Assembly: GCA_031835245.2 (NCBI GenBank)
Contig: JAVKOQ020000002.1
Location: forward strand, 620,001-665,278
From: Balamuthia mandrillaris
Lineage: Eukaryota
Direction: 5' to 3'
DNA length: 45,278 bases
The position numbers and the translations under genes were made by a program. Shown here in pieces: positions 18,869 to 45,278 of this stretch (the stretch's first letter is position 1; each line of letters begins with the position of its first letter). The notes beneath the pieces are model-generated. The model did not search any database and had not been told where the DNA came from. It saw nothing but the letters and a program-made list of their open reading frames with translations.

Positions 18869-20147
18869 ATGAAGGAGCAGTATGACGAGATAGAGGGGGC
18901 AGAAGGCGCCACCTATTCTCCAGAGAACCAACAGCTGTCGGTGGTAGGCAAAGGCCTGGCCTCCGTTCCTGCCGGTCTTGCAGAGCGCTATGGCAGCACG
19001 GTGCGGCGGTTGGACCTCAGCCACAATGCTCTTACGTGCGTTTTAAAAACCTTTGCTTTGTGTAAAAAGCATTTTTGTTTTAATGTTTTTTTGCTTTTAA
19101 TACATGACACAGGGACTTGAGCGGGCTGAAGGGCTTCAGTCGATTGGATTCTCTTGTGCTTGACTGTAACCAACTCTCCGAGGATCCCAGCTTTCCTTCT
19201 CTTCCTTCTCTCCGCACCCTGTGTGCCAACGACAACAACGTACCTCTGCTACTCTATTCTTCCACCCTCTCTGATACTCATTCTCTGCCTTGCGGATCTT
19301 CTTTGTCTTTTTGGTAATACAGATCGAAGAATTAGAGGTTTTCCTTGAAAAAGTGGAAAAGGCATTGCCCAGTCTTACATATCTCAGTCTTCTAAAGAAC
19401 CCTTGCTGTCCAAATTACTTTACCGGCAAAGATCAGGAAGACTATCAAAGATATAGGTGCCGTACTCTTCTCCGCCTTTGAGGCAGTCTTCTCTTCTCTT
19501 CTCTTCTCTTCTCTTCTCTTCTCTTCTCTTCTCTTCTCTTCTCTTCTCTTCTCTTCTCTTCTCTTCTCTTCTCTTCTCTTCTCTTCTTCTCTTCTCTTCT
19601 CTTCTCTTCTCTTCTCTTCTCTTCTCTTCTCTTCTCTTCTCTTCTCTTCTCTTCTCTTCTCTTCTCTTCTCTTCTCTTCTCTTCTCTGCTGCTAAACTTT
19701 GTAATTCCCTTCGCCTTTCATTCTTCTCTGCTTCTCTGCTTCTGTAAATGAATGTACAGGTACTTTGTGATATATAAGCTACAAGGCTTGAAGTTTTTGG
19801 ATTCATCGGCAGTCACAGATACAGAACGGCAGGAGGCGAAGCGGGTTGGCAAGTTTGTGGGACGGGTGGCGCGGCCAGCTGAAGACCAGTACAACAAACC
19901 ACCCGACCCAACGTTTGTAGCCGATGAGAGCCTTCCCGCTTTGCCAGCTGACTTGCGACCTGTAGAGCCTCCCTCAAAGGCTTACTTTGGCAAGAGCAAA
20001 TATGTACGTCTCTTCTCTCATTTCGTCTGTGTTTACATCTCTTATTCGTGTTAACCCTTTCGCTTCTTTCTTTTGTTTGCAACCAAAAAGGTATATTATG
20101 GGCGGCAATCAGAGGGCAACCGTTTCATTCTCAACGACGATCTGTAG
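18869..20147 (+). CDS. LRMDA: Leucine-rich repeat protein, LRMDA (C10orf11) homolog; multi-exon
   Basis: LRRs RLDLSHNAL and LVLDCNQL, LRR cap LTYLSLLKNPCCPN..DYQRYRYFVIYKL..LKFLDS, and the family-typical C-terminus YYGRQSEGNRFILNDDL*. Confidence 0.82.
19487..19687 (+). repeat. (CTCTT)n pentanucleotide microsatellite, about 40 copies, inside an LRMDA intron
   Basis: Directly visible; one short phase slip near 19585. Confidence 0.97.
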
Positions 20148-36958: not shown

Positions 36959-39140
36959 CACCTGCCTGAGTTACGGCGTTGTGAACGAGTTGTGGCTCCT
37001 TTTCTGCTGCTACTGCTAGATGAGGCAGCCACGGCAGCAGCAGCTCTTTGCAAAGATGACTTGGCAGCAGCAGTAGCAATAGCCTTTTGAGCAGCAGCTG
37101 CAGCCTTGCGCGTAGATTTGCTGCTAGGGCTCTTAGTAGCACTTGTGTTTTCCTCTTCTTTCTGTTTTTCTGCTTCTTTTTCGCCAGCTTCTGCTTCTGC
37201 TGCTTTTGGTTCTTCTTTTTCTTTTTCTTCTTCTTTTTCTTTTTCTTTTTCTTCTTCTTCTTCTTCTTCTTCTTCTTCTTCTTCTTGTTCTTCTTCCTCC
37301 TCTTCCTCTTCTTCATTTTGTGCTGCTGCTGCTGCTGCTTGTTTCTCTGGGCCATTAGCAGGTTTTTTTGATACTAGAACAACAACAACAACAACAAAAA
37401 TCAGTAAGGCTTGAATGAGAAATCACAAAGGCATAACAGTGCAAACAAACTCCAAAAAGATAGCGCTCCGCTGGAGCGCTAAACAATCAACACCAAAAAG
37501 ACAACCAACAAGAAATACAAATAATAATAAGAACAAAACTGGAGTTAAAAAGCTGCTGCTCCGACGGAGCGCCACTGTATAAGCATAGAATTGCAACTGA
37601 AAAGCCCAAAAAAAAAACACCACGAGGAAGAGGACAAACAAACAAACAAACAAACAAACAAACAAACAAACAAACAAACAGAAAACGAGTAAACCAACAA
37701 AAGAGAGACAAAACACAAAGCTAGTAGAAAAACTGACGGACAGATGGACAGACAGACGGACAGATAGAGAACCAAACTCGAATGGACAAATGAAATAAAA
37801 ATACATACATTCCAACACGTCTATCAGTATGGAATCATCAATATCTTTATCCACCATCGCAGCTGTTGAAGGAGCTGTCTGGTTGGGAATATCTGACTTT
37901 GTTTTGCTATCTCCAGCACCATCACGTGTATCTGCATGCATGCATGTATACATGCATGCCAGCAAGTGTGGTTAGTGCATATGTGAGTTGTTGTAAGTAA
38001 CACCAAACGTGAGCGCCTCTTACCTGCTACATTAGTGATATCAAGGCTCATGAGACTGGCAATCTCATCATCATCATCATCTGAGGAGCTGCTGCTGCTG
38101 CTGCTGTTACTGCTGATGCTAGGAGCAGTAGACTTGGTGGAAGTTGCAAGCTTCTCTGTCTTCTTGGGTTCTTCCTCCTCCTCCTCCTCCTTCTCTTCCT
38201 CCTCTTCCTCCTCTTCCTCTGACTTGCCTGACTCCACTGACTTATCTGATGCCTCTGACTCAGATGAGGCCTCAAACTCCTCCGACTTATCTGATGCCTC
38301 TGATGCGGATGAGGCTTCGGACTCCTCTGACTCGGTGGCAGTCTTCTTTTGTTTCTTTTTCTGCTGTTGTTTCTGCTTCTCCTTCTCCTGTTCCTTCTCC
38401 TTCTCCTTCTCTTTCTTTTTCTGTTGTTGCTTTTGCTTCTGCTTCTGCTTCTGCTTCTCCTTCTCCTTCTCTTTCTCCTTCTTCTTCTTTTTCTGCTGTT
38501 GCTTCTGCTTCTGCTTCTGCTTCTCCTTGTCCTTCTGTTTCTGCTTCTGTTGTTGCTTTTTTTTCTTTTTTTCCAACAACAGTTGATCATCATCCGCTTT
38601 CCGTGGCTTCTTGCTTGTCACAGGAGAGGAAGAGGCAGAAGAGGACATAGCTCTTGGGCGCTTTGTTGAGCTTGGTTGTTGCTGCGCTGTTTCTGCTGTT
38701 GCTGCTAGGTCCATTGTGTCTACGAACACACCAGCTGAGGTAGCATTTCCACTACCACTTCCACCACCACCACCACCACCACCACCACCACCCAGGATAC
38801 TGCCATCATCGAGATTAAACTCCGCATCATCCAAACTACTCTGGTCTACAGCAGCAAAAGAGCGAAGGTCAGGCCCAAAAAACTCTGTCAAGTCTATACA
38901 GGGGCTGGCATCGACAGAGATGTCTTGCTGCAGCTCACTGCTCTTCTGAGCCAGCTTGTCCATGGCTTTTTGGTGCCTAACAGAATGGCGTTTGGCACGA
39001 TGCTTCTCCCTCTTCATTTCTGTATTGCCGACTTGGGTAGAGGTGGTATGGATAGGCTGCCATGTTTTGTTATCCAATTGATCCACATATTGTAAATCCC
39101 TGGAGAATGACAGAAAGAGAAAGAGAAAGAGAGAGAGAGA

Positions 39141-39184
<44 letters not shown>

Positions 39185-39478
39185 AAGAGAGAGAAATAAA
39201 GAGAGAGAAAGAAAGAGAAAAAGAGAGAGAAAGAAAGACAAAAAGTTAAAAAGCGAGTAAATGGGAGGAGGTTGGTAGAGAGTGGTGAATTGTTCCTTTC
39301 CTATGAAACAAACAAACAAACAAATAAACAAACAACTTACCAATCAGCCGCGAGTGGTGATATAGCATCCAGCTCAGGCAAGTCCTTTACATGCACAATA
39401 GCAGCTGCATTGTATAACTGGTCTGTAGGCACTTTAGTGGTAGCAGAGCTGCTGCTAGCTTTACTCTTGTTCTTGCTT

Positions 39479-39512
<34 letters not shown>

Positions 39513-42500
39513 TGCTTTTGCTTTTGCTTCGCCGTCGCTCAGGTTTGCTGGATTTTTCCAGTGTGATGTGCGGCCACACTCGCTCCAGCTGAGAACGAAC
39601 CGGATGACGAATGCGTGTCTTCCAGAGCTTTCTATCCAAAGGATCCAACTCCAGCGGAGTATTATGTTGTTGCGCTTCCTTCACCAAGCAGCGACGAACA
39701 GCAAGCATCAACCGCTTGACATCCTCCAAAGGTCCAGAAAGGTTGATGCTGGTAGAAATGCGCATGCCTTTCAAGGATTTCAGACTGGCGAAGTTCAACG
39801 CGTTCTCTGCCAAGGCTTCTTGCACCGTAAAGGGAGGACAATAATGGATTAGCTTCATACGGTATTGGAACAACTTTTCCTTGGCGGAATGCTGTTTCTC
39901 TACCATCGCTTCCGTTCGGGCTGCTTGCTCTAATTGCTGGCCGTCCAATGGGGGATATAAGAAGGCTTCTGGATCTTCCTCCATCACTGCCGCTTCTTCT
40001 TCTTGTTGTTGTTGCTCTTCACCTTCTTCCTCTTCTTCTTCCTCCTCCTCTTCCCCTCCTGCTAATATCGCCTTTTGTTGCACTTTGGTTCGATGGCTGC
40101 TCGTTGTTGGCTTTGAGGGGGTAGCTGACATTAGAGCATCTGCCAAAGATGACTCGTTCAACCATTCTTGGCGCAGCGGTGGCAAACGGGTATTCTCCTC
40201 GTGTGTTGCGCTATCACTATGAGCAAGCAAGCAAGCAAGGAGGCGAGCGAGTGAGTAAACAGGCAAAGGGAATATAGAGAGGTGGCAAGGATAACATGTC
40301 TTGCATTGCAAGCAAGCAAGCAACCAAGCGAAAGAGGAGCAACATACTGGATAGTTTTGGCCCGTAATAACATGAAAAGTTTCTGCAGGCCGAGAGGGAG
40401 TTGTCTATATACTAACAACAGTTCTTCCCGGGTGAAGGAACCCTGAAAAACGCGTCCTTTGCGGTTGCGCCGTTCATCCGAGGAGGGCATCTCCTTCAGA
40501 ATGCTATACACTGCAGCGTTAATGAGGTTACGGATCCAACTTCCAGTTGGTGTCTCATAAAACCTGCTGCTGCTGCTGCTGCTGGACTGGGAGGAAGTCG
40601 CATCCAACGGTTGTTGTTGTTGCGATGGATCCATCGGCAAGACTTCTTTGCCACGGTCAAGACCAAGAGCGGCCTGATGCAGCACGTCCCAATGACCCTT
40701 GCGAATGGATTGCGCCAGCCACTTCCACCGTGGATTTTCCAGACCGTTGACGATCCAGGGTCCTTCAACGATGCTGCCATGGCAGCGTAAGCCATTGGCC
40801 ACGATATCACCCAATTCCTGGATGATTCCCTCGTTTTGGGCCTGCAGCCACCCAAAGTAAGCGAGAGTTAGCACTTTCCTTCCACCCACCCACCCACCAA
40901 TTGAAACAATCAACCAACCAACCAACCAACCAAACAAACAAACAAACAAACAGATAATGATAAACGGACCTTGCGTCTACAAAACCTCAGAAAGGTTTTG
41001 CTTAGCTCTGTATTTACTTCAGATGGAGGGCTGACCACCATGGGAATGTAATAATAAAACACCAACTGCTTCTGGATGGCTGGAGCCAAGGGGTGCAGCA
41101 GACGAAAGTCGGTTTTCGAAATGAGACCCCGGTTCTCTGCTGCCAGTTGGGAAATAACGTCGATGGACATATGCTCCACCAGGGAGAGATCTTGTCTAAA
41201 AGCGTTGAGTGTAAAGGATTTCGCATGAGCTGCTGGCAAATCCTGTTTGGTGAGCACAAAATAGGGGAGCATCTCCCGTGGAGGTAGGCTTTTCTTTGAT
41301 TTGGCCTTATCGAAAATATGTTCTGCAGCAGCAAGCGCCACTTTCAAGGCCCTGTTGCTTTGAATCTGATCCATTGCACTGACAATGCAACAACACAACA
41401 CATACACATAGCAGTAAGTTGAGAGGTAGTTAGGTCAGATAACCAAGGGCCATATAAAAACAAACAAACAAACAAACAAACAAACAAACAAACAAACAAA
41501 CAAACAAATAAATAAAAAGAAGAACATACTCAGTTTTTGATAGTTGCACGGCATTGGCCAGTTTCAGCAACGTGTCTGCAAATGACCATTCTCGGGGCTT
41601 CACTTTGGTGTTGGGGTCTTCCACCATGGACACAAGCTGATGCACCGGCAGTGACAGTAGATGAATAATGTTGAAATATCGACCGTAGATGGGCATAAGT
41701 GGCGATAACCATGCGCCGTTCTCATCGGCGAGCTGATAACGCCGTACTACATCGCTAGCCGAACGATACACCGCGTTAAGATCGCTGTCCGACAACTTTG
41801 CTGCCACCCTTTGCTGAGGAGAAGAGGCAGCAGCAGCAGCAGCAGCAGCAGCAGCTGATGAAGAGGCAGAGGGGGGGCTAGTAGGCGAGGCAGCTACAAT
41901 AGCTGTGGTTCTCAGTGGAGTAGAAGGAGGAGTGAAGAGAATGCTGTTGATGGTCCCACCAGAAGGCATGGGGCTCTCTTGCGATGATGAAGGTAGGCCA
42001 AGTGAAGCAGCAGCAGCAGCAGCAGGGGATAGCGATGCTGAACTTGCTGCCGCTGCTGCTGCTGCATTGACTGCTGCTTGCTTTGCCTTTAGCAAGGCTT
42101 GCAGTGTGGCTAAGCGAGTGTTACCGCTCAAGACACCTATCCTGAGATGTACTCTCCATGAGTCTGGTTGGTTGGTTGGTTGGTTGGTTGGTTGGTTGGT
42201 TGGTTGGTTGGTTGGTTGGTTGGTTGGTTGGTTGGTTGGTAGGTAGAAAGAAAAACACAGAGGCTCAGTTACTCACAAGGAAACAAAAAAAATAAACCAA
42301 TAACCCCAACAGCAATAACCATAATAACAATGATGGACAAAAGGAAAAGAGAAAAGAGAGATAAAGGGTTAAAAAGAACGCATGATTGCTGGGGTTAAAT
42401 TTGCTGAGGATCTCAGCTTCGGCCTCTGGGCTACCAATAGCAGCAACTGGAAACATATGAGCCTTAAGTTACAATGCAAACCAACCAACCAACGAAATGC

Positions 42501-43399
42501 TACCAACAAACAAACAAACTAACAAACAAACAAACAAAATAAAAACCCTAAAGTGCGGTGGTGGTGCAACCAACGGGTTGGTTGAATAGAGTACCTTTGT
42601 TTAAAATGAGTTCTGCCGAAGTCTGGGTGGCAGTAAACATGAGCTGACTAAGCTTAGCACGCTCGCGGGCCAAAGCATCGCTGGGCTGGCTGCTCTCCTG
42701 GCTACTGCTCGCGATGCTGCCACTGCTGCTAGCGGGAATGCGACATCGGCTAGTAGCAGGGGGGAAAGCAGGAGAAGGAGCCAGTTGGGACAGTTGCCAG
42801 CCCCCTGCAGCTTCATTGGTGTAGACAATGAATGGCGTGATGAAGAAGGCCCCATCAAATCCTTCTTGTGAAGTAGCCCAGCCATTGGTATGGATAAGCC
42901 TCTCAGCTAGGCTGTAATTATACACGCCAGGTCGGAACCCGCGCTGTACCACGTAGGTTAAAAGTTGGGTGCTCCTTTGCGTGGGTAAAAAGTATCTGCA
43001 GAGTGAGTGTGTTCATGTAGTATTGCATTCATTCAGCAAAACAAAACAATCACACCAACAACAAGTCAGTAAAACATAACACAAAGAGAATGTAAAAAAC
43101 AAACAGTTGGTTGGTTGGTTGGTTGATTGGTTGGGTAAAAGAAGAGAAGCAATGCACTCAAAGGGAACGCCCATTAAAAATGAATCTTGTTTTGCAGCCA
43201 AAGAGGTGTTAAGCAGCGAGGGGGACAACTGTTGGAGTTGCTCCCAAGCTTCCTCAAATGAGGAAAAACCATCCTCAAAACCGGTACGAAGGATATCAAT
43301 TAACTGGGAATCATCAGTTTGCAACAACTGCATCCAGAGGGGAAGAGTATGAGTGCCAACTGGTGGCATGAAGGAGGGTGTCACTTGAATGGATTCCAT
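36959..43399 (-). CDS. Large multi-exon hypothetical protein (about 9 exons) with Ala/Ser/Glu/Lys-rich tracts and a possible viroplasmin (RNase H1 N-terminal)-like motif
   Basis: Chain of minus-strand ORFs separated by GT-AG introns holding (TTTG)n, (CCAA)n or (CT)n; donors near 41529, 40969, 40347 and 39340. The 39340-39100 splice was checked in frame ([11 protein letters not shown]). TGA at 36959-36961. Could be more than one gene. Confidence 0.6.
37461..37575. repeat. Two isolated copies of the array palindrome inside an intron
   Basis: TAGCGCTCCGCTGGAGCGCTA at 37461-37481 and GCTCCGACGGAGC at 37558-37570. Confidence 0.85.
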
Positions 43400-43444
43400 C
43401 ACAGCACGGACAGCAGAGTTTAACGGAGAATACAAAAGTATCTA

Positions 43445-43740
43445 TGGTTCAAAATGATTATTGTCCTATTGTCAGCCAGCCACGCCACAAAAACAATAAG
43501 ATGTTAATCAAATATATATCAGCAAACATGACAAAGTCATCTAGTTGAAACAAAAAACAATGAAAGAGAACAAAGCATAAGAGGAATAACAACAATAACA
43601 ACAAATACAACTACCACCACAACAAAAAGAAGAGATAACAAAGACAGACAAAGATATAAACATACAGTTCTGTTTGTGAAGCAATTCAAGTTGAAATTTG
43701 GTCACAACATAATAAAACGAACAATAATCATTTTGAACCA
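43445..43740. repeat. Perfect 20-bp inverted repeat pair enclosing 256 bp
   Basis: TGGTTCAAAATGATTATTGT at 43445-43464; its reverse complement ACAATAATCATTTTGAACCA at 43721-43740. Confidence 0.9.
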
Positions 43741-43816
43741 CAAACAGTAACTAGGGAAAAAGAACAACAGATGCATGGAAACCAGCAGAATGCAAAACAA
43801 AACCCACGAATGCTAG

Positions 43817-44750
43817 CAGCGCTCTGACGGAGCGCTACTTGCTGCGATACAAAAATAAAAAGGAGAAGAAATGAAAGAGTGATAAACAAGGAGGTGAAAG
43901 TAGCGCTCCGACGGAGCGCTAACGCGCGAGTGAATTTGACAGAGATAGGAGGGAAAAAGTCAAAATAAACAAAGTCAGAACAGCACGGAGGAATAATGGG
44001 ACAAAGAGTGAATGGTGAAAATAGGGGAGCGAAAGTAGCGCTCCAACAGAGCGCTAACCCCGCGCAGGATTGTGGGAGAGGGAGAAGAAAAAATAAAAAC
44101 AACCAAGTCCAAATGGAACAGGGTCGTGCAGGGAAAAAAGAGTGAGTGGTGTGAAATGGGGAAGCAAAAGTAGTGCTCCGATGGAGCGCTAACCCCATGA
44201 GTGATTTTGAGAAAGGGCGAAGAAAAAATAAAAACAACCAAGTCCAAATGGAACAGAATCACGAATGAACATAAGAGTGAGTGGTGCAAAATAGGGGAGT
44301 GAAAGTAGTGCTCTGACGGAGCGCTAACCCCGCGCGGTATTTTGAGAGAGGGTGAAGAAAAAATAAAAACAACCAAGTCCAAACGGAACAGGTCGTGCAG
44401 GGAAAAAAGAGTGAGTGGTGCAAAATAGGGGGGCAAAAGTAGTGCTCCAATGGAGCGCTAACCCCGCACGGTATTTTGAGAGAGGGTGAAGAAAATATAA
44501 AAACAACCATCAAATGAACAGGGTCGTGCAGGGAAAAAAGAGTGAGTAGTGGGAAATGGGGGAGCGAAAGTAGCGCTCCGACGGAGCGCTAACCCCGCGA
44601 GTGATTTTGGGAGGAAGAGAAGTGAAAATAAAAACAACCAAGTCCAAACGGAACAGGGTCGTGCAGGGAAAAAAGAGTGAGTGATGCAAAATAGGGGAGC
44701 GAAAGTAGCGCTCCGACGGAGCGCTTACCCCGCGAGTGATTTTGAGGAAG
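43817..44750. repeat. 135-bp tandem array (7 units plus 1 partial), each with the 21-bp palindrome TAGCGCTCCGACGGAGCGCTA
   Basis: Palindromes start at 43817, 43901, 44036, 44171, 44306, 44440, 44571, 44706 (spacings 84, 135, 135, 135, 134, 131, 135). Sequences between them are homologous, e.g. AAAATAAAAACAACCAAGTCCAAA and GGTCGTGCAGGGAAAAAAGAGTGAGT. Confidence 0.97.
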
Positions 44751-45278
44751 AGAAAGCCTCACCAGGAGGTGATTGTGTTAAAACAAATGCGTAGACCAAC
44801 GCATGAAAAGGCCCACAATATATATACACGCACACACCACACAAGTGAAGCCCGTATGCCATAAAACTAGAGAGAGAGTTCACAAAGAAAAAGTAGTACG
44901 TACAGAATAGATCGTGTTGCAAGGACGACCAGAGGCACAGGCAGAACAAAAACAGTAGATTTTTTTTGTTTTTTTGTGATTTGTTTTGATACGAAGGAAG
45001 AAAGGACAGGAGGGGTAGTAAAACGAAAAATCAAATACAGGGAAGGGAGTGCAAAAGGGGGATAGCGCAAGTGTTGGAGAAAGGAGCAATATCAACCACT
45101 AGCACAAAGGCAGCAGTTGAAAACAAAGTGAAACAAAAACGAAGAAAAAAAAGGGGGTAGTAGGGGGAAAGTTGCTGTGAGTGCGTGGGGTTGTGTGTGG
45201 GGGTGTCTGGCAGTAGTGTTTGCTTAGCTGATGACGAAAAAAAAAAAAAATAACGGTCAAAAAAATTAAGGTGGATAA

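What the first reader, a model, noticed from the sequence alone, without database searches (positions are those of the whole stretch)
43817..44750. 135-bp tandem array with a 21-bp palindrome: candidate binding or recombination platform
Seen: eight copies of TAGCGCTCCG-A-CGGAGCGCTA (10-bp arms, 1-nt centre), seven at 131-135 bp spacing, as GC-rich islands in A-rich purine-skewed linkers. The right arm GAGCGCT is invariant in all copies. Inference: dyad sites for a dimeric protein, such as subterminal sites for the recombinase, iteron-like origin or partition sites of an excised circle, or an enhancer for the cargo gene. The 1-nt centre is too short for a loxP-type crossover spacer (6-8 nt), which favours accessory binding over crossover.
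Basis: partly seen in the sequence, partly recalled or inferred. Interest (0 to 1): 0.75.

Follow-up and report, generated by a model that had tools for sequence, protein, structure and literature searches.

The report
Palindrome array inside amoeba transposon intron
A 135-bp repeat carrying a conserved 21-bp palindrome lies in what spliced transcripts indicate is the first intron of a Balamuthia mandrillaris gene, beside a tyrosine-recombinase–Myb gene whose relatives are multi-copy, and it is likely a cluster of protein-binding sites belonging to that mobile element; whether the recombinase binds it is untested.

Summary
Eight copies of the 21-bp dyad lie at 43817-44726, and TRF reports 6.3 units of 135 bp. 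A ninth, solitary copy at 37461-37481 was missed. Six spacings, not seven, are 131-135 bp.

The window is Balamuthia mandrillaris. It encodes an NCBI protein of that species exactly.

The array lies in a predicted 1,438-nt 5'-UTR intron (43466-44903, minus strand) of an orphan gene ("gene A"). Gene A has relatives on three other contigs.

About 7.5 kb away lies one YR–Myb gene made of two exons. A paralogous subfamily of it has 17 members at 90% identity or more, on many contigs. It therefore looks like a Crypton-like mobile family.

The block 30-43.5 kb is CpG-depleted, and the array is a CpG-rich exception. Non-CpG positions of the palindrome are conserved (1 of 91 changed) while linkers decay (74 of 646 changed). 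The solitary copy shares nothing but the palindrome.

The array is low-copy, not a general satellite.

Best reading, at about 0.35: a cluster of dyad sites for a dimeric protein, predicted to be the element's YR–Myb.

Co-location with other YR copies could not be tested because no genome is held. The "1-nt centre" argument is weak, because the site also reads as 7-7-7. Interest is moderate.

The parts
43896..44746 (.). 135-bp tandem array, 6.3 units
   Evidence: TRF period 135, 81% matches, score 1024. Unit alignment.
43817..43837 (.). Palindrome 1, in the leading shortened 84-bp unit
   Evidence: 2 mismatches. T at 43825 is C in DNA run X9: 127.7 of 127.7 depth, one contig.
43901..43921 (.). 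Palindrome 2, perfect, in the oldest full unit
   Evidence: 0 mismatches. Its linker is 75% like the younger units.
44036..44056 (.). Palindrome 3
   Evidence: 2 mismatches, both CpG>CpA.
44171..44191 (.). Palindrome 4
   Evidence: 2 mismatches, both CpG>TpG.
44306..44326 (.). Palindrome 5
   Evidence: 2 mismatches, both CpG>TpG.
44440..44460 (.). Palindrome 6
   Evidence: 3 mismatches, all CpG transitions.
44571..44591 (.). Palindrome 7, perfect
   Evidence: 0 mismatches.
44706..44726 (.). Palindrome 8, in the last, partial unit
   Evidence: 1 mismatch, A21>T. Contigs of X1-X3 follow the array to 44718 and then run on into 255 letters that are not in the window.
37461..37481 (.). Solitary ninth palindrome, 9-bp arms with a 3-nt centre as it stands
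   Evidence: 2 mismatches. Flanks unrelated to the unit. DNA hairpin -10.2 kcal/mol, z -4.1.
43466..44903 (-). Predicted intron 1 (5'-UTR intron, 1,438 nt) of gene A; it holds the whole array
   Evidence: In X1, X2 and X3, contigs ending at 43465 run on with 29 letters that match 44904-44932 at 27 of 29, a unique match in the window. Signals GTACGT...AATAG are intact in the window. Unspliced contigs 43436-44047 also exist.
44904..45180 (-). Predicted non-coding exon 1 of gene A; the upstream end is approximate
   Evidence: Contig depth 95-180 falls to 3.65 beyond 45179 in X1. No ATG in this stretch.
43158..43465 (-). Exon 2 of gene A, start codon at 43399
   Evidence: Joint 42995/43158 with minus-strand GT..AG in X1-X3. 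P0016 residues 1-81 map to 43399-43157.
42595..42995 (-). Exon 3 of gene A
   Evidence: Joints 42995/43158 and 42446/42595. P0016 residues 82-229 map to 42994-42551.
33588..36344 (-). Tyrosine-recombinase exon of the YR–Myb gene (open frame, stop to stop)
   Evidence: 44-46% identity to Balamuthia proteins P0001 and P0002. The motifs TGAR, VTKG, HSLR, GW and YVK are kept in 4 of 4 sequences. The nearest Atlas clusters are eukaryotic Tyr-recombinase / Phage_integrase.
32007..33020 (-). Myb exon of the same gene (open frame, stop to stop)
   Evidence: Aligns to P0001 residues 502-703, E = 1e-37. Myb Pfam match below cut-off here (20.7 bits) and above cut-off in P0001 (39.4 bits).

Best explanation
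The array is a low-copy 135-bp minisatellite whose conserved core is a 21-bp dyad. It is predicted to act as a cluster of binding sites for a dimeric DNA-binding protein, most likely the YR–Myb recombinase encoded 7.5 kb away on the same Crypton-like element.

Shown:
- The array and a solitary ninth dyad exist.
- The dyad's non-CpG positions are kept while linkers decay.
- The array is not a general satellite.
- The YR–Myb gene is one gene with an intact catalytic motif set, and a paralogous subfamily is multi-copy.
- The 30-43.5 kb block is CpG-depleted, and the array is a CpG-rich exception.

Inferred from spliced contigs of a 97%-similar copy plus intact splice signals: the array lies in the 5'-UTR intron of gene A, about 150-1,090 nt downstream of the 5' splice site.

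Predicted mechanism:
- Dimers of the element's recombinase would occupy each dyad.
- The sites would then act as a loading or synapsis platform near the gene-A end of the element. This is accessory binding in the sense of arm-type or subterminal sites.
- Read as 7-bp arms around a 7-bp centre, they could instead be core-type sites.
- Because the sites sit just downstream of the start of the transcription unit, occupancy would probably also affect transcription of gene A.

Unit number would change by unequal exchange, as the older edge units and younger central units suggest.
For: - Constraint on the dyad: 1 of 91 against 74 of 646 non-CpG cells changed. Unit 43901 keeps 21 of 21 with a 75% linker. 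The solitary site has unrelated flanks. Shuffles gave no such 21-mer by chance.
- A YR with an extra DNA-binding domain is adjacent.
- Its relatives are dispersed. The P0002 cluster has 17 members, and the 15 listed lie on contigs of 15 different lengths, two of them fused by annotation to host genes.
- Gene A also has relatives on 3 other contigs at 95, 83 and 76% identity. Variant units that are not in the window appear in contigs. The module is therefore probably repeated.
- CpG o/e is 0.27-0.62 in 30-43.5 kb against 0.70-0.91 in the host genes, which marks the block as different from host DNA.
- One contig, seen in X1, X2 and X3, loses similarity at position 13 of the last dyad.
- Precedent read in passages of PMC12256816: MYB/SANT genes at Starship edges, DUF3435/MYB hybrid genes, and the proposal that such a Myb recruits the recombinase to element ends.
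Against: - No binding data.
- No test of co-location with other YR copies.
- The element's ends are unknown, and the window stops 528 bp beyond the array.
- Described Cryptons have 4-6-bp terminal direct repeats. 'palindrom' does not occur in the text of either Crypton paper; 'tandem' occurs once in PMC3212892, in its reference list, and not at all in PMC13465315.
- The dyad holds no AAC core of the kind classic Myb domains read (recalled).
- CpG positions of the dyad decay as fast as those of the linkers: 9 of 56 against 14 of 64.
- All units share one orientation, so there is no trace of inversion between near-symmetric sites.
- The spliced contigs differ from the window by 14 of 531 letters, so they come from another strain, allele or paralogue.
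- The window's own YR subfamily has not been shown to be multi-copy.
Confidence: 0.35

Rival explanations
1. Intronic enhancer. The dyads would be sites for a host dimeric transcription factor. As a homotypic cluster in the 5'-UTR intron they would drive or tune gene A, with the solitary site serving the next transcription unit. The recombinase plays no part.
For: - Position just downstream of the predicted exon 1.
- The array is a CpG-rich island (o/e 1.05) in a CpG-poor block, as expected of protein-bound, unmethylated regulatory DNA.
- The dyad is conserved.
- The intron is about ten times longer than the gene's other introns of 131, 148 and 162 nt.
Against: - No factor is known.
- Only 9 sites in 45 kb, all inside the YR block and none near the roughly 10 host genes.
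- Dyad CpGs are decaying, and the gene's intron-4 donor is mutated in this copy. This is odd for a maintained regulatory module.
Confidence: 0.3
2. Neutral minisatellite. A segment that happened to hold a palindrome was amplified by unequal exchange in a long intron of a decaying, methylated repeat. The palindrome has no present function; it could be a relic of joined 10-bp inverted ends of a small element.
For: - Typical array dynamics, with diverged edge units and similar central units.
- CpG decay hits the dyad as it hits the linkers.
- Differences between runs at dyad CpGs (43825, 44174, 44182, 44309).
- No hit in Rfam and no protein match for the array frame.
Against: - Non-CpG conservation of the dyad against the linkers.
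- A perfect dyad in the oldest unit.
- A solitary copy with unrelated flanks 6.3 kb away.
- Inverted similarity does not extend beyond 10 bp: 3 of the next 10 positions match, by my own reading of the unit.
Confidence: 0.2
3. Crossover sites. The dyads would be true core sites (7-7-7) at which the YR cuts and rejoins. The solitary site and the array would bracket genes A and B as an excisable or invertible cassette, and unit number would change by YR-mediated exchange.
For: - 21 bp read as 7+7+7 matches the classic size of YR core sites (recalled, not tested).
- Two site positions flank a 6.3-kb gene block.
- Similarity of one foreign contig ends inside the 7-nt centre.
Against: - The centres differ (CCGACGG against CCGCTGG), which would block exchange between the solitary site and the array.
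- No inverted units.
- Eight direct core sites should collapse quickly if the enzyme were active.
- The contig that breaks at position 13 lacks a second arm.
Confidence: 0.1
4. RNA-level or replication roles: intronic hairpins or small-RNA precursors, or iteron-like origin or partition sites of an excised circle.
For: - The array is transcribed at least as unspliced RNA.
- Each dyad folds as a 9-bp stem, -10 kcal/mol as DNA.
- Neighbouring dyads can pair in RNA, z = -6.5.
Against: - Stems are too short for known small-RNA precursors.
- The changes do not preserve pairing on the transcribed strand: 2 compatible against 6 not, by my own count.
- No Rfam match reaches a gathering score.
- No Rep-like or Par-like gene among the 21 frames scanned.
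- The 135-bp spacing is unlike iterons (recalled).
Confidence: 0.05

Closest known systems
Crypton DNA transposons (tyrosine-recombinase elements with an added DNA-binding domain)
   Same: - A YR with the R..K..HxxR..W..Y motifs and no reverse transcriptase nearby.
- An extra C-terminal DNA-binding domain: GCR1_C in CryptonF, Myb here.
- Dispersed near-identical relatives.
- Features of the family read in passages of PMC3212892 and PMC13465315.
   Different: - Described Cryptons have 4-6-bp terminal direct repeats and no inverted repeats.
- No tandem array or palindrome is described in the text of either paper.
- The ends of this element are unknown.
- The YR does not reach any Pfam YR model: 0 families at E <= 0.01 for the window frame, and none at E <= 1 for P0001 or P0002. 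Only P0003 gives Phage_integrase, at E = 0.023.
- I found no amoebozoan Crypton with a Myb domain in print.
Starship elements of fungi: Captain YR with MYB/SANT genes and DUF3435/MYB hybrids
   Same: - A YR and a Myb/SANT domain on one cargo-bearing element, sometimes fused in one gene.
- The Myb is proposed to recruit the recombinase to element ends (passages of PMC12256816).
   Different: - Starship captains carry DUF3435, which is not detected here.
- Starships are fungal and tens to hundreds of kb long, with terminal inverted repeats in the cited examples.
- No palindrome array is reported in the passages I read.
Core recombination sites of tyrosine recombinases (lox, FRT, dif, att cores) — recalled
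   Same: Two inverted arms about a short centre. A total of 21 bp fits a 7-7-7 layout.
   Different: - The centre here is itself nearly palindromic.
- The sites stand as eight direct copies inside an intron, not at a junction.
- Cleavage is untested.
Subterminal transposase-binding repeats of DNA transposons, and arm-type sites of phage integrases — recalled; Harbinger as cited in PMC12256816
   Same: Many copies of a short site near one end of an element, read by a second DNA-binding domain of, or partner to, the recombinase.
   Different: - Those sites are usually short and directional, not 21-bp dyads at 135-bp spacing.
- Nearness to an end is not shown here.
Tandem promoter or enhancer units at the 5' end of mobile elements (mouse L1 monomers, retroviral enhancer repeats) — recalled
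   Same: Tandem units of about 70-200 bp at the 5' end of an element's transcription unit, each with factor-binding sites.
   Different: These units lie downstream of the predicted first exon, in an intron. Promoter activity is untested.

Membership tests
Minisatellite (tandem array) | Head-to-tail units of one period, more alike than chance | tested here: met
   Period 135, 6.3 copies, 81% matches. Alignment.
General host satellite | High copy number, many loci | tested here: not met
   - In DNA run X9 the flanks stand at 121-137 and the array bins 44270-44774 at 384-1620 summed depth, about 3-12 fold. The tool warns that this is no copy number.
- No other copy in the 45-kb window.
- 0 viral loci, and 9 single metagenome loci with no similarity beyond the dyad.
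YR core recombination site | Inverted arms | tested here: met
   10-bp arms, or 7-bp arms under a 7-7-7 reading.
YR core recombination site | 6-8-bp centre between the two cleavage points | tested here: inconclusive
   1-nt centre as a palindrome, 7-nt centre (CCGACGG) if read 7-7-7. The cleavage points are unknown.
YR core recombination site | Lies at element or host junctions, or between exchanged segments | tested here: inconclusive
   The sites are internal, in an intron. One foreign contig breaks at position 13 of a dyad. The element's ends are unknown.
YR core recombination site | Bound and cut by the cognate recombinase | not testable with these tools
   Needs a bench assay.
Crypton-like YR transposon (the setting of the array) | Tyrosine recombinase with catalytic residues | tested here: met
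   TGAR, VTKG, HSLR, GW and YVK are kept in 4 of 4 aligned sequences. Atlas neighbours are Tyr-recombinase clusters at 0.97-0.98. No Pfam YR hit for the window frame, P0001 or P0002. The structure model was too poor to use, pLDDT 40.9.
Crypton-like YR transposon (the setting of the array) | Several dispersed copies | tested here: inconclusive
   Met for a paralogous subfamily: 17 members at 90% identity or more, with the 15 listed on contigs of 15 different lengths. Not tested for the window's own subfamily.
Crypton-like YR transposon (the setting of the array) | Short 4-6-bp terminal direct repeats, no TIRs, no reverse transcriptase | not tested
   The ends are not defined. No RT domain among the 21 frames scanned.
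Iteron origin or partition site | Direct 17-22-bp repeats at about helical spacing beside a Rep or Par gene | tested here: not met
   Spacing is 131-135 bp. No Rep-like or Par-like family in 21 frames.
Integron-like cassette array | Different gene cassettes, each ending in an imperfect palindrome, beside the integrase and its attI | tested here: not met
   The units are copies of one non-coding 135-bp sequence. The array frame has no protein relatives. The YR is 7.5 kb away.
Homotypic binding-site cluster (enhancer-like) | Repeated motif in non-coding DNA near a transcription start, conserved above background | tested here: met
   Intron 1 position. Conservation. Activity and binding are not testable here.
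Structured RNA family | Match to a curated covariance model | tested here: not met
   The best 4 matches score 20-26 bits against gathering scores of 50-100.

The most novel reading that the evidence does not exclude
The 21-bp dyads are the DNA sites of a eukaryotic YR–Myb transposase. The enzyme would be two-handed, like a phage integrase: one part reads a core-like dyad and a second domain holds repeated sites. The array would serve as its loading and synapsis platform. This would give the first defined recombination-site architecture for a Crypton-like element, in an amoebozoan.
Probability: 0.2. Interest if true: 0.8.

Novelty: new variant of a known kind. Interest (0 to 1): 0.45.

Why it matters
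How Crypton-type tyrosine-recombinase transposons find and join their DNA is still inferred only from 4-6-bp end repeats (PMC3212892, passages). A conserved 21-bp dyad sits next to an intact YR–Myb gene and is repeated eight times, in a genome whose transposons are said to await annotation (preprint 10.1101/2025.02.25.640156, passages). That gives a concrete and cheap hypothesis to test by gel shift and by a whole-genome co-location scan.

If the dyads are instead a host-factor enhancer, the case shows a CpG-rich regulatory island surviving inside a CpG-depleted repeat block. That would also point to CpG methylation in Balamuthia.

If neither holds, it is an ordinary intronic minisatellite.

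Tried and rejected
- Whole-genome search: no genome is held.
- Earlier findings of this scan: nothing by place, by sequence (twice) or by words.
- Metagenome scan for the dyad with CpG decay allowed: 9 loci with one match each. Similarity beyond the dyad was at most 58 nt at 78%. I read these as chance. Viral scan: 0.
- RNA raw-read runs X12, X13 and X14: 0 reads laid on either stretch. The tool calls this no test. No RNA holder was listed.
Two smaller stretches were laid instead.
- Whole-window repeat search was swamped by low-complexity DNA.
- Protein search with frame 41430-42272 returned only 12 PT-repeat hits, caused by a (TGGT)n stretch.
- Atlas search of frame 39337-40404 gave no usable hit.
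- Protein search with the array frame: 0 of 277 candidates scored.
- Structure model of P0001 from a 4-row alignment: pLDDT 40.9, so no fold search was made.
- PDB sequence search matched only the Myb part.
- Rfam: nothing near a gathering score.
- Telomere repeat TTAGGG x2: 0 in the window.
- The Myb ends in ..DCKDKWRNLL and each dyad is followed by TAACCCC, so I considered a telomere-type Myb reading a GGGTTA-like word. I dropped it. The best PDB matches are general Myb proteins (E = 8e-5), while telomere-binding ones are at E >= 0.12. The word also belongs to one repeated unit, so it counts once.
- Extra half-sites (18981, 33114, 37565) are about what chance gives, 1.3 expected.
- The Harbinger paper could not be opened by DOI or by a guessed PMC id. 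It is cited only through PMC12256816.
- Supplements of the bioRxiv preprint are closed. Its repeat annotation may bear on copy number.

Full report
**1. Observation**

The 21-bp dyad TAGCGCTCCG-A-CGGAGCGCTA occurs eight times between 43817 and 44726. The copies carry 0-3 mismatches, and no match arose in 100 shuffles. TRF calls 43896-44746 a 135-bp array of 6.3 units, with 81% matches and score 1024.

The spacings are 84, 135, 135, 135, 134, 131 and 135. Six of the seven, not seven, are 131-135 bp. The first unit is a shortened, diverged one.

The + strand of the array is 69.8% purine. GAGCGCT is unchanged in 8 of 8 copies. That has little weight, for two reasons. 11 of the 13 changes in the dyads are CpG transitions. 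The three changes in the mirror CpG of the left arm lie in adjacent units and may be one event.

It differs at positions 11 and 12, and one of those changes is a CpG>TpG. Its flanks are no more like the unit than shuffled sequence.

**2. Organism and setting**

The window is eukaryotic. It is rich in microsatellites and holds RhoGEF, Slu7, ankyrin, BTB and F-box genes in its first 29 kb.

It encodes, letter for letter, a 229-aa NCBI protein of Balamuthia mandrillaris, P0016. The coding stretches are 43399-43157 and 42994-42551 on the minus strand. I call this gene A.

Gene A has no relatives outside a handful of proteins:
- In a full HMMER pass over 1.84 billion representatives, 7 proteins reached E <= 0.001.
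- Four of them are close, at 99, 95, 83 and 76% identity. All four are Balamuthia proteins on four different contigs.

**3. The array lies in a predicted intron**

Contigs of runs X1, X2 and X3 come from one sample, and their kind is not on record. They carry joints with minus-strand GT..AG ends at 42446/42595, at 42995/43158 and, in X2 and X3 only, at 40216/40348. Their depth collapses inside the skipped parts. A contig of DNA run X9 runs straight through 42996-43157. I therefore read X1-X3 as RNA-derived.

In all three runs a contig ending at 43465 continues with 29 letters. These letters match 44904-44932 at 27 of 29 and nowhere else in the window. The window keeps GTACGT at 44903 and AATAG at 43466. 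The stretch 44904-45180 holds no ATG, and its depth ends near 45180 in X1.

This predicts a 1,438-nt 5'-UTR intron, 43466-44903, that holds the whole array. It is about ten times longer than the other introns seen (131, 148 and 162 nt).

Caveats:
- The spliced contigs differ from the window by 14 of 531 letters. They show the splice in a close allele, strain or paralogue, not in this very copy.
- Unspliced contigs 43436-44047, with 1 difference in 611, also exist at about a quarter to a third of the exon depth.
- Three labelled RNA runs gave no reads at all. The tool rates that as no test.

**4. The neighbouring recombinase**

The frame 33588-36344 (minus strand) is 44-46% identical to two Balamuthia proteins that carry Myb domains. 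The frame 32007-33020 (minus strand) aligns to the C-terminal 200 residues of one of them, at E = 1e-37.

The motifs TGAR, VTKG, HSLR, GW and YVK are kept in 4 of 4 sequences. Language-model neighbours are eukaryotic Tyr-recombinase and Phage_integrase clusters, at 0.97-0.98. Pfam finds no YR family in the window frame, P0001 or P0002. The structure model was too poor to use.

One paralogue's 90% cluster holds 17 proteins. The 15 listed lie on contigs of 15 different lengths, and two of them are fused by annotation to a Rap1-GAP and a DEAD-box helicase. That is the pattern of a mobile family.

I found no paper that joins Balamuthia with tyrosine recombinases. I also found no amoebozoan Crypton with a Myb domain. 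The genome preprint says that transposon annotation is still to be done (passages).

**5. A marked block**

CpG observed/expected values are:

| Stretch | CpG o/e |
|---|---|
| 1-27 kb (host genes) | 0.70-0.91 |
| 27-30 kb | 0.60 |
| 30-43.5 kb | 0.27-0.62 |
| the array | 1.05 |

Of the 40 differences between the window and the laid runs that one search lists, 31 lie at CpG sites. One of them turns the GT donor after exon 4 into AT in the window.

This fits CpG methylation of the YR / gene-A block. That step is inferred. The array is either young or protected.

**6. What is constrained**

| Positions | Palindrome, cells changed | Linkers, cells changed | Test |
|---|---|---|---|
| non-CpG | 1 of 91 | 74 of 646 | Fisher p = 6e-4 (cells not independent) |
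| CpG | 9 of 56 | 14 of 64 | not significant |

These counts come from the seven units from 43901 on.

The oldest full unit keeps 21 of 21 dyad positions while its linker is 75% like the younger units. The solitary site shares only the dyad. The dyad, not the 135-bp unit, is therefore the entity that persists.

**7. Copy number**

In DNA run X9 the flanks and gene A stand at 121-137, mostly as single contigs. The younger units sum to 384-1620. The tool warns that this is no copy number. Even so, it excludes a high-copy satellite, and it allows a longer array or one or two more arrays.

Loose ends show unit variants that are absent from the window. They also show one contig, in X1-X3, that follows the array to position 13 of the last dyad and then runs into 255 letters that are not in the window. 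A second, 85-90% similar form of the gene A exons is also present.

**8. Reading**

A conserved 21-bp dyad calls for a dimeric protein. The nearest candidate is the element's own YR–Myb.

Tyrosine recombinases bind inverted arms as dimers. An added DNA-binding domain is the rule in Cryptons (GCR1_C). Myb partners, or Myb fused to the recombinase, are reported for Starships, with the proposal that the Myb brings the enzyme to the element's ends.

I therefore put 0.35 on a binding platform for YR–Myb.

The same 21 bp is 7+7+7, the classic core size (recalled). True crossover at these sites nevertheless seems less likely, at 0.1, for three reasons:
- The two kinds of centre differ.
- No unit is inverted.
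- Eight direct core sites should collapse.

The intron position and the CpG-rich state give the enhancer reading nearly equal weight (0.3). A neutral minisatellite (0.2) fits the CpG decay but not the solitary copy or the non-CpG conservation. RNA hairpin, origin or partition roles have little support.

**9. Verdict**

The feature is real, and it is described more exactly here. It is a new variant of a known kind: repeat arrays with protein sites inside mobile elements. It sits in what appears to be an undescribed YR–Myb element family of an amoebozoan.

The key claim, linkage to YR copies and binding, remains open. It can be settled by one genome scan and one gel shift.

Noticed in passing
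window 32007-36344 (-): The YR and Myb frames are one gene. A paralogous subfamily has 17 proteins at 90% identity or more on many Balamuthia contigs, two of them fused by annotation to host genes. It looks like an undescribed Crypton-like family.
   Followed up: partly
window 30000-43500 against 1-27000: CpG o/e falls from 0.70-0.91 to 0.27-0.62. 31 of the 40 listed differences between the window and other runs are CpG transitions. This suggests CpG methylation targeted to this block.
   Followed up: partly
window 42383: The donor after exon 4 of gene A reads AT in the window. The C that restores GT on the minus strand is carried by 1390 of 1408 depth in X5 and 121 of 121 in X9; X1 has no depth at this place. 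This is a CpG>TpG change. In X1 and X3 exon 4 is joined to 30 letters that are not found anywhere in the window.
   Followed up: partly
window 37824-42272 (-): A run of open frames ('gene B') between gene A and the solitary dyad. It has no Pfam family and no Atlas neighbour, and it is expressed at 3-18 depth against 60-136 for gene A. One intron, 40217-40347, was seen.
   Followed up: partly
window 44718, last dyad: Contigs in X1-X3 match the array up to position 13 of the dyad and then continue for 255 letters unlike anything in the window. This could be the edge of another array, or a junction.
   Followed up: partly
window 35617-35870, 19487-19687 and many others: Very dense microsatellites: 76 TRF rows in 45 kb. 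They include (GAA)85 inside the YR frame and (TCTTC)40. Several sit in introns and give false PT-repeat protein hits.
   Followed up: no
L009:1063-1253: A freshwater metagenome contig holds four partial copies of a similar GC-rich palindrome at about 57-bp spacing. It is unrelated outside the palindrome and probably a different repeat system.
   Followed up: no
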